Made by a program: the position numbers and the translations under genes
Part shown: positions 3,876 through 5,371 of the stretch, in pieces
How positions within the stretch are numbered: position 1 is the first letter of the stretch
How the letters are laid out: every line of letters begins with the position of its first letter
The notes under the pieces: model-generated
Database searches by the model: none
What the model was told of the DNA's origin: nothing
The model's input: the letters and a program-made list of their open reading frames with translations, nothing else
Assembly: GCA_951406725.2 (NCBI GenBank)
Contig: OX597818.1
Coordinates: 125,426,001 to 125,490,000 of the forward strand
DNA length: 64,000 nucleotides
Direction of reading: 5' to 3'
Origin: Octopus vulgaris
Lineage: Eukaryota

Positions 3876-3934
<59 letters not shown>

Positions 3935-4085
3935 AATTAAGGACTGAACACGAAAAGTGGACAGTCAACATGCTAGATATAGACGTCAAATCGCCATTCA
4001 CCACAAAAGATTATGTTCTCAGATCAAACTCAACACAAAACCATAGCAATAAACAAGTGAAAAATATACGAAATAAAATAATTAC

Positions 4086-4150
4086 CCATGTACTAACTTA
4101 GTTTCAGCTGTTATTTTCCGCAAGGAAAACTGCAGCCATCATCAGCATGG
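4086..4150 (-). ncRNA. Type I hammerhead ribozyme
   Basis: Reverse complement of the 5026-5090 motif. Confidence 0.85.
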
Positions 4151-5025
4151 TCCGTTATAAATGTAATTTGCTGGACTAGATGCAAACACGATACCGAAAT
4201 ATCGCGTGCATGGAGTTCAGCCTATTACATTTGAATATATCTTTCAAATGCCTTTACCTTGGCGCGTTGAAACCCGAGAAAACCAGCCTGCAGCTAATAA
4301 TTAGCAGCAGTTAATTTATCGGTTAGAGAACATATTTATTTATATAAAATTAATTAAGGGTAGAAATTGATATTTATCAATTAAGACCAGTGGTCTAGCA
4401 TATTAAAAAAGAATCCGAAGATTAAAATATTTATATATACCAATTAAGGACTGAACACGAAAAGTGGACAGTCAACATGCTAGATATAGACGTCAAATCG
4501 CCATTCACCACAAAAGATTATGTTCTCAGATCAAACTCAACACAAAACCATAGCAATAAACAAGTGAAAAATATACGAAATAAAATAATTATTTTATTTC
4601 GTATATTTTTCACTTGTTTATTGCTATGGTTTTGTGTTGAGTTTGATCTGAGAACATAATCTTTTGTGGTGAATGGCGATTTGACGTCTATATCTAGCAT
4701 GTTGACTGTCCACTTTTCGTGTTCAGTCCTTAATTGGTATATATAAATATTTTAATCTTCGGATTCTTTTTAATATGCTAGACCACTGGTCTTAATTGAT
4801 AAATATCAATTTCTACCCTTAATTAATTTTATATAAATAAATATGTTCTCTAACCGATAAATTAACTGCTGCTAATTATTAGCTGCAGGCTGGTTTTCTC
4901 GGGTTTCAACGCGCCAAGGTAAAGGCATTTGAAAGATATATTCAAATGTAATAGGCTGAACTCCATGCACGCGATATTTCGGTATCGTGTTTGCATCTAG
5001 TCCAGCAAATTACATTTATAACGGA

Positions 5026-5090
5026 CCATGCTGATGATGGCTGCAGTTTTCCTTGCGGAAAATAACAGCTGAAACTAAGTTAGTACATGG
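5026..5090 (+). ncRNA. Type I hammerhead ribozyme
   Basis: CCATG-CTGATGA-TGGCTG..TTTTCC-TTGC-GGAAAA..CAGCT-GAAA-CTAAGTTAG-TA^CATGG: stem I CCATG/CATGG, intact core, predicted GUA cleavage after 5085. Confidence 0.88.
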
Positions 5091-5336
5091 GTAATTATTT
5101 TATTTCGTATATTTTTCACTTGTTTATTGCTATGGTTTTGTGTTGAGTTTGATCTGAGAACATAATCTTTTGTGGTGAATGGCGATTTGACGTCTATATC
5201 TAGCATGTTGACTGTCCACTTTTCGTGTTCAGTCCTTAATTGGTATATATAAATATTTTAATCTTCGGATTCTTTTTTAATATGCTAGACCACTGGTCTT
5301 AATTGATAAATATCAATTTCTACCCTTAATTAATTT

Positions 5337-5371
<35 letters not shown>

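What the first reader, a model, noticed from the sequence alone, without database searches (positions are those of the whole stretch)
3931..5340. 1.3 kb near-perfect palindrome built from a 507 bp tandem HHR unit
Seen: the left arm holds about 1.3 units and the right arm about 1.5 units. The arms are essentially identical (I saw one homopolymer indel), there is no spacer, and each arm has an intact HHR. The unit has no credible ORF. The circularly permuted partial tandem is what rolling reverse transcription of a ~507 nt circular or HHR-to-HHR RNA would leave (inference). The high identity implies a very recent insertion.
Basis: partly seen in the sequence, partly recalled or inferred. Interest (0 to 1): 0.8.

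Follow-up and report, generated by a model that had tools for sequence, protein, structure and literature searches.

The report
Head-to-head hammerhead retrozyme insertion
This 1.3-kb mirror-image repeat is two back-to-back copies of a very abundant 507-base non-coding repeat carrying a predicted self-cutting RNA, likely pasted in by a Penelope-type retrotransposon enzyme, so it is likely a new member of a known class whose joint may hint at how such inversions form.

Summary
A spacerless palindrome centred at 4588|4589 is built from a 507-bp non-coding unit (1.3 units left, 1.5 right), with one type I hammerhead per arm and (TA)n on both sides.

The unit is a high-copy family: 1454-1786 contigs in each of three runs, plus a 64%-identical older copy in the window with compensatory stem I changes. 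The exact mirror joint occurs in 2 of 4 runs, both from one study, so a pure assembly artefact is unlikely but not excluded.

The layout matches the published signature of Penelope-like elements: partial tandem, head-to-head inverted copy, one-sided tail, TA target. The unit fits animal non-LTR retrozymes.

The joint is a TAATTA hexamer 7-12 nt past the predicted cut. That favours an RNA template whose 5' end was made by the ribozyme over free rolling on a circle. With one ribozyme per strand, this locus cannot release a circle. Cleavage, circular RNA and the partner enzyme are unshown.

This scan has already reported similar palindromes many times, in this and other genomes.

The parts
3884..3932 (.). 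Left (TA)n target microsatellite; the element boundary is ambiguous within TATATATA (3925-3932)
3925..4588 (-). Left arm, 1.30 units, ribozyme sense on the minus strand; ends at the short 3' end (unit position equal to 5244-5251)
   Evidence: (TA)n loose ends at 5256 in 15 contigs each of X1 and X4
4086..4150 (-). Type I hammerhead of the left arm; predicted cut after 4091
4586..4591 (.). TAATTA self-complementary hexamer at the palindrome centre; equals unit positions 5092-5097, 7-12 nt downstream of the predicted cut
   Evidence: exact 42-nt contig 4574-4615 in X1 and X16
4589..5342 (+). Right arm, 1.49 units, ribozyme sense on the plus strand
4834..5340 (+). One full 507-bp period of the unit; high-copy family; predicted to be strongly self-paired
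5026..5090 (+). Type I hammerhead of the right arm: stem I 5 bp, extra U between positions 9 and 10.1, extended stem II, short stem III; predicted cut GUA/C after 5085
   Evidence: compensatory stem I changes in the older relative
5252..5342 (+). One-sided tail of about 90 nt, present only at the right end
   Evidence: the older relative ends at the equivalent position
5337..5372 (.). Right (TA)n(TG)n target microsatellite; 6-nt TATATA overlap with the unit
46605..47102 (-). Older relative of the unit, about 64% identical over 513 columns, with its own hammerhead (46944-46877), ending in (TA)n at the long end; less than one period; no tandem or inverted copy seen
   Evidence: (score 239 against a maximum of 53 in 50 shuffles)

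Best explanation
The palindrome is two head-to-head partial-tandem copies of a high-copy 507-bp non-coding hammerhead repeat lying in a (TA)n microsatellite, likely one recent insertion of a non-LTR retrozyme written by a Penelope-like (PLE) reverse transcriptase-endonuclease.

Inferred steps: (1) A multimeric transcript from a tandem source elsewhere is cut by one hammerhead, which fixes its 5' end. (2) The PLE enzyme, probably a dimer, cuts both strands of the TA repeat and primes two cDNAs at two fixed internal sites about 90 nt apart (short end, long end). (3) Each cDNA runs back through one uncut ribozyme, or jumps template there, and on to near the 5' end. (4) The two cDNA 3' ends anneal through self-complementary TAATTA and are filled in, giving a spacerless palindrome with a one-sided tail.

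This copy is likely a dead end, with one ribozyme per strand; read-through would give a double-stranded hairpin of about 660 bp. I put the class-level identification at about 0.88; the confidence figure is for the full mechanism.
For: Shown in sequence: geometry, period, ribozyme and TA overlaps at both ends.

Family: 20 of 24 listed runs hold at least half of the unit's words, from 8 studies and 4 organism labels. 1786, 1580 and 1454 contigs were laid in X1, X3 and X4. One 535-nt contig in X7 runs through more than a full period.

Fixed ends: (TA)n loose ends at the short end in 15 contigs each of X1 and X4; the 64% relative stops at the long end.

Ribozyme under constraint: 3 of the 5 stem I pairs changed on both sides in the relative and all still pair.

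Joint: an exact 42-nt contig, depth 388 in X1 and 53.5 in X16, plus a one-difference variant at depth 34 in X1. The hexamer used is the first after the cut, among 15 palindromic centres (about 12 clusters) in one period. A second, 93%-decayed palindrome at 63080-63438 also has its inner end at a hammerhead-like cut.

Same template: both arms carry 4918G, where at least 98% of the depth in X1, X3 and X4 reads A.

Literature: PLE tandem, inverted and tail layout with TA targets (PMC8557442); head-to-head inversions with junction palindromes (PMC3846280); a PLE protein cuts and extends both strands, is a predicted dimer and has two RT starts that bound the tail (PMC11167929); retrozymes as PLE derivatives, 51-972 bp (bioRxiv 10.64898/2026.07.22.740005).
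Against: No autonomous partner sharing sequence with the unit was found; no genome is held.

The joint contig has only 15 letters on its short side, below the tool's 31-letter bridging rule. It appears in 2 of 4 runs, both from study P1, is absent from X3 and X4, and the tool flags that X1 or X16 may be the window's source. One search lists no strand-change joints. The flanks were not testable, because 5324-5480 was skipped as repeat.

The tail (about 90 nt) is longer than the published 30-40 bp. For the anole PLE, ribozyme cleavage was not needed in vitro and no reads began or ended at the cut. The free fold misses the active core by 2 kcal/mol. The chance of using the cut-proximal hexamer is about 1 in 12, which is only modest support. 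The shared alleles may be the majority in the window's own species, since the X7 contig is identical over 4906-5323.
Confidence: 0.5

Rival explanations
1. Same element and two-ended priming, but the template was a ligated circular RNA of about 507 nt copied for 1.3 and 1.5 rounds. The joint site is then set only by the TAATTA hexamer.
For: Circular RNA is the main form of tested animal retrozymes and is proposed as the template (PMC7229834). The unit folds strongly as a circle: -139.7 kcal/mol, z -6.2 against 40 shuffles. Both arms exceed one unit. Unchecked scan notes describe palindromes with many identical units per arm in other families.
Against: A circle gives no reason to stop just past the cut on the second pass, and it requires the enzyme to displace its own cDNA after one round (inference). 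No circular RNA has been shown for this family.
Confidence: 0.23
2. One cDNA only: the right arm was made by target-primed reverse transcription, its 3' end self-primed at TAATTA, copied itself back for about 660 nt and joined the left flank through the TATATATA overlap.
For: It explains identical arms and no spacer directly. Self-priming was proposed for PLE junction palindromes (PMC3846280). The left end has an 8-nt TA overlap with the target.
Against: The left end coincides with a common family end, as a priming site would. A 6-nt palindrome cannot form a stable intramolecular hairpin (inference). The left arm has T6 where its supposed template has T5; this is weak, since homopolymers slip.
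Confidence: 0.15
3. Fold-back read or assembly artefact: the genome holds an ordinary partial-tandem copy and the left arm is a chimera.
For: The arms are almost perfectly identical with no spacer. The joint contig is only about 0.2% (X1) and 0.14% (X16) of summed depth, comes from one study, and could be a library hairpin chimera. No read spanning the locus could be examined.
Against: The left arm ends cleanly at a family 3' end in (TA)n and continues into different flank sequence, whereas a fold-back read would go on mirroring the right flank. The identical joint exists in short-read contigs under two organism labels, at 5-20 times the depth of the listed rare-variant contigs in X1 and 3-16 times in X16. 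Decayed palindromes of 79-93% identity in the same window cannot be read artefacts.
Confidence: 0.07
4. DNA-level origin: a foldback or MITE-type transposon, or a later inversion-duplication of an existing copy at a break.
For: The element is palindromic and sits in TA repeats; other inverted repeats in the window look MITE-like.
Against: The two ends are unequal and match family ends. The arms are partial tandems. The loose letters listed upstream of TAATTA in all four runs are the hammerhead, not a mirror arm.
Confidence: 0.04

Closest known systems
Animal non-LTR retrozymes (Cervera & de la Pena 2020, PMC7229834; Li, Clavereau & Pollet 2026, bioRxiv 10.64898/2026.07.22.740005)
   Same: Non-coding, low-GC, high-copy tandem unit with a type I hammerhead, predicted to be strongly self-paired. 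The size lies within the 51-972 bp range of Li et al.
   Different: 507 bp is above the 170-400 nt of the experimentally tested families. Neither main text describes head-to-head palindromic insertions ('inverted': 0 hits; only in the references). This locus lacks two consecutive ribozymes. Cleavage and circles are untested here.
Insertion units of endonuclease-positive Penelope-like elements (Adineta Pen2a/Pen3a, PMC3846280; Craig et al. 2021, PMC8557442)
   Same: Partial tandem, 5'-truncated head-to-head inverted copy with a palindrome at the junction, tail at one end only, (TA)n target hiding any target-site duplication.
   Different: No RT-GIY-YIG ORF; the tandem period is 507 bp rather than 3-4 kb; each arm is longer than one unit; the tail is about 90 nt rather than 30-40 bp.
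PLE-type hammerheads (Cervera & de la Pena 2014, PMC4209133)
   Same: [quoted passage not shown] That paper already notes pairs of ribozymes 100-700 bp apart on opposite strands.
   Different: Stem III is 3-4 bp here, so a monomeric active fold is within 2 kcal/mol of the minimum. The two ribozymes are about 880 nt apart.
Poseidon_Ac of the green anole (Frangieh et al. 2024, PMC11167929)
   Same: Provides the biochemistry invoked: AT-rich cleavage, extension of both strands, a predicted dimer, and two internal RT starts bounding the tail.
   Different: Autonomous. Its RT start is AC-rich and not homologous to the target, whereas both ends here overlap the target by 6-8 nt of TA. Its ribozyme cut was dispensable in vitro.

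Membership tests
Animal non-LTR retrozyme | Type I hammerhead core with stems I-III | tested here: met
   compensatory stem I changes; Rfam models did not match
Animal non-LTR retrozyme | Short head-to-tail repeat unit | tested here: met
   period 507; a 535-nt contig runs through more than one period in X7
Animal non-LTR retrozyme | Non-coding, GC below 45-50% | tested here: met
   longest frame 60 codons; GC 0.33 over 4001-5000
Animal non-LTR retrozyme | Dispersed high-copy family | tested here: met
   1454-1786 contigs in each of 3 runs, single contigs at depth 22,000-25,000; no copy number can be given
Animal non-LTR retrozyme | Highly self-paired monomer | tested here: met
   predicted only: z -6.6 linear, z -6.2 circular
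Animal non-LTR retrozyme | Self-cleavage and accumulation as circular RNA | not testable with these tools
   only contigs were available; no run was on record as RNA
'Active' retrozyme locus (Li et al. 2026 definition) | At least two consecutive units, each with a complete hammerhead | tested here: not met
   one ribozyme per strand; definition read; this copy is not filed as an active source locus
Autonomous EN+ Penelope-like element | RT plus GIY-YIG ORF between the repeats | tested here: not met
   share of contigs running on into unlike sequence was 0 in X1, X3 and X4
PLE-type insertion (works like) | Partial tandem plus head-to-head inverted 5'-truncated copy with a junction palindrome | tested here: met
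   compared
PLE-type insertion (works like) | Tail at one end only (30-40 bp in published families) | tested here: inconclusive
   a one-sided extension is present but is about 90 nt; the long end could not be tested in the runs
PLE-type insertion (works like) | (TA)n microsatellite target | tested here: met
PLE-type insertion (works like) | Target-site duplication | tested here: inconclusive
   hidden by TA repeats on both sides
PLE-type insertion (works like) | Sequence shared with the pLTR of an autonomous partner | not testable with these tools
   no genome held; the PLE-like ORF remnant at 62315-62900 shows no similarity to the unit
MITE / foldback DNA transposon | Equal terminal inverted repeats as the fixed family structure | tested here: not met
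   unequal ends; listed family contigs have the ribozyme, not a mirror arm, upstream of the centre

The most novel reading that the evidence does not exclude
The mirror joint recurs at one hexamer just past the ribozyme cut in several independent genomic copies. [quoted passage not shown] That would settle how PLE head-to-head inversions arise, give the ribozyme a role that the in vitro work did not see, and tie animal retrozymes to PLE enzymes by their insertion scars.
Probability: 0.3. Interest if true: 0.55.

Novelty: new member of a known kind. Interest (0 to 1): 0.3.

Why it matters
As a class it is ordinary: a retrozyme-type repeat inserted in the Penelope pattern, of a kind this scan has already noted many times. 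I found no paper on hammerhead retrozymes in octopus or on palindromic retrozyme insertions (searches; term look-ups; open-access library only). Its value is as a clean, apparently young example with a sharp joint and two defined ends. It makes two open questions testable by counting copies: how PLE inversions form, and whether the ribozyme cut defines the template. If transcribed, it would also be a source of long double-stranded RNA against its own family.

Tried and rejected
GENOME-WIDE COUNT. Not possible, no genome is held.

RFAM. No hammerhead match at gathering scores or up to E=10; the miRNA hits are hairpin artefacts far below gathering.

EXPRESSION. No RNA holder listed. Eight of the 20 holders are only guessed to be RNA and I did not lay them, so they are no evidence either way. 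Of the 24 listed runs I laid 5 (X1, X3, X4, X7, X16).

FLANKS. 5340-5480 had no cover, but the tool skipped 5324-5480 as repeat; this says nothing about presence or absence of the insertion.

OTHER SEARCHES. A 24-nt ribozyme pattern in metagenome contigs gave 0 matches. The sequence look-up in earlier scan notes gave 0 windows. Pfam on 6 candidate ORF remnants gave one zf-RVT hit and no GIY-YIG.

WEAK MATCHES. Unit matches at 43.7, 53.6 and 61.4 kb are TA-rich noise and were dropped. Pairing of the two TA-rich ends to close the tail appears only when the flank is included and not in the circular fold, so it is not used.

X7 CONTIG. It is not a closed circle, since its two overlapping ends differ at 4918 and 4922; it shows cyclic order only.

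Coding function and MITE origin were rejected (see rivals and membership test).

Full report
OBSERVATION. The region aligns to its own reverse complement at 99.7% over 1338 columns, with the centre at 4588|4589 and no spacer. The arms differ by one T in a homopolymer and by one mismatch that already lies in the flanking (TA)n. The period is 507. The left arm spans about 3925-4588 (1.30 units) and the right arm 4589-5342 (1.49 units), so about 90 nt are present on the right only. Both outer ends merge with (TA)n through 6-8 nt of shared TA, which hides any target-site duplication. No frame in the unit exceeds 60 codons.

RIBOZYME. Each arm has one type I hammerhead: 5026-5090 plus, cut predicted after 5085, and its mirror at 4150-4086. 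My scanner gave 7 hits in the window against 0.07 per shuffle (30 shuffles). Rfam did not detect it. The active fold lies 2 kcal/mol above the free minimum, both alone and in a circular monomer. An older copy at 46605-47102 is 64% identical (score 239 against a maximum of 53 in 50 shuffles). It keeps the core, and 3 of the 5 stem I pairs are changed on both sides and still pair. The extra base between positions 9 and 10.1 and the short, near-palindromic stem III are described PLE traits (PMC4209133). The ribozyme sense points outward on both arms, so the arms are head-to-head.

FAMILY. No genome is held, so I used public runs, all kept as contigs. Twenty of 24 listed runs hold at least half of the unit's 48 sampled words, from 8 studies and 4 organism labels. 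Laying one period gave 1786, 1580, 1454 and 3 contigs in X1, X3, X4 and X7. In the three large runs the share running on into unlike sequence was 0, so no link to an ORF-bearing element appeared. Fifteen contigs each in X1 and X4 end in (TA)n at 5256, so the left arm's end is a family end; X3 instead lists a different loose end at 5237. The long end could not be tested in runs because 5324-5480 was skipped as repeat, but the older copy ends there in (TA)n. A 535-nt contig in X7 passes through more than one period and is identical to the window over 4906-5323. Its overlapping ends differ, so it shows cyclic order, not a circle. Both arms carry 4918G, where at least 98% of the depth in X1, X3 and X4 reads A. 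This fits one template haplotype, with the caveat that the window's species may differ from those runs.

IS THE MIRROR REAL? A perfect palindrome in a 31-mer graph can leave only a short hairpin contig (inference). Laying 4570-4624 returned such a contig, 4574-4615, 42 nt with no difference, at depth 388 in X1 and 53.5 in X16, plus a 49-nt variant with one difference at depth 34 in X1. X3 and X4 had no cover left of 4586. Against reading too much into this: the short side is 15 letters, below the tool's bridging rule; both positive runs are from one study and may include the window's source; the contig is 0.14-0.2% of summed depth, a level library chimeras might reach; and one search lists no strand-change joints. 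For reality: the left arm stops at a family end and continues into non-mirrored flank, and decayed palindromes exist in the same window, for example 63080-63438 at 92.8% identity between (TA)n tracts. I put an artefact at 7%.

MECHANISM. The centre hexamer TAATTA equals unit positions 5092-5097, 7-12 nt past the predicted cut. It is the first after the cut among 15 palindromic centres (about 12 clusters) in a period, so chance is roughly 1 in 12. The 63-kb palindrome also has its inner end at a hammerhead-like cut, after 63271. An anole PLE protein cuts AT-rich DNA, extends both strands, is predicted to be a dimer and starts at two internal sites that bound the tail (PMC11167929). I therefore infer two cDNAs primed from both strands of a (TA)n break at the short and long sites, each copied through one uncut ribozyme to near a ribozyme-made 5' end, and joined through TAATTA (0.5). 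The rivals are a circular template (0.23), self-priming of one cDNA as proposed in PMC3846280 (0.15), an artefact (0.07) and a DNA-level origin (0.04). Results against my reading: in the anole system the cut was dispensable and no reads began or ended there; the tail here is longer than the published 30-40 bp; and no partner element was found. A PLE-like remnant at 62315-62900 resembles HTH_animal and GIY-YIG clusters (0.90-0.95, with those families on 11-55% of members) but had no Pfam hit and shares nothing with the unit.

COMPARISON. It works like a PLE insertion: partial tandem, inverted 5'-truncated copy, one-sided tail and TA target are all published. It is not an autonomous PLE, since there is no ORF. 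At family level it meets the testable features of animal non-LTR retrozymes, but cleavage and circles are untested. This locus fails the two-consecutive-ribozyme definition of an active copy.

PAPERS SEEN. bioRxiv 10.64898/2026.07.22.740005: parts 1-3 of 5 and a term search; its supplements are closed and might list related families. PMC11167929 and PMC4209133: parts 1-2 of 4. PMC7229834: passages and sections 14 and 17. PMC8557442, PMC3846280 and PMC13282606: passages only; no supplements opened. All others: search listings only. The label 'octopus-like' is recalled from repeat content and the scan's notes, and comes from no identification of mine.

EARLIER SCAN NOTES. Unchecked notes report similar hammerhead palindromes of 356-590 bp units in this genome and others; a sequence look-up of this unit found none. 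My PLE/retrozyme reading was stated, and the tail and family-end observations are in my notes. The short-end/long-end wording is borrowed from e1-8669363. Notes on many-unit arms raised my odds for the circle. They are not counted as evidence.

VERDICT. Real with about 0.9 probability, a new member of a known kind, interest 0.3.

Noticed in passing
window 63080-63438: Decayed 360-bp palindrome (92.8%) between (TA)n tracts. Its apex is a U3-A8-type hammerhead-like motif, and the left arm's inner end coincides with the predicted cut after 63271.
   Followed up: partly
window 61447-61750 and 61780-61900: 61-bp inverted arms plus a 3' stretch resembling the unit's tail (74% over 55 nt, E 0.004, AT-rich) between (TA)n tracts, followed by an opposite-strand end with a decayed hammerhead-like motif.
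   Followed up: partly
window 62315-62900 (+): Broken PLE-like ORF remnant with a Cys-rich linker and a GIY-YIG-like end; no Pfam hit.
   Followed up: partly
window 43003-43320 (-) and 43546-43647 (+): Cys-rich ORF remnant that recalls a Neptune-type linker (recalled, no Pfam hit) beside an opposite-strand type I hammerhead with a very long stem II.
   Followed up: no
window 13692, 30369, 55245, about 5545, and 29285: Minimal PLE-type hammerheads. Four belong to one repeat family (the copy near 5545, 200 nt right of the finding, has a mismatch in stem I); the 29285 motif shares its first 13 core and stem II bases with the finding's ribozyme.
   Followed up: no
window 39352-39947, 9850-10035, 12034-12414: Other inverted repeats: an inverted pair of a common SINE-like repeat and two MITE-like hairpins, 79-92% identical.
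   Followed up: no
window 41669-41975 (+), 8962-9066 (-), 57236-57350 (+): SRP RNA, U6 and a U6atac-like sequence above Rfam gathering scores; U6 and U6atac in one 64-kb window is slightly unusual.
   Followed up: no
window 26905-27868 (+): Frameshifted transposase-like ORF pieces (label recalled; no Pfam hit for 27155-27865).
   Followed up: no
window 50694-51341 (+): ORF remnant with a zf-RVT domain (E 5e-6), probably the 3' end of a LINE.
   Followed up: no
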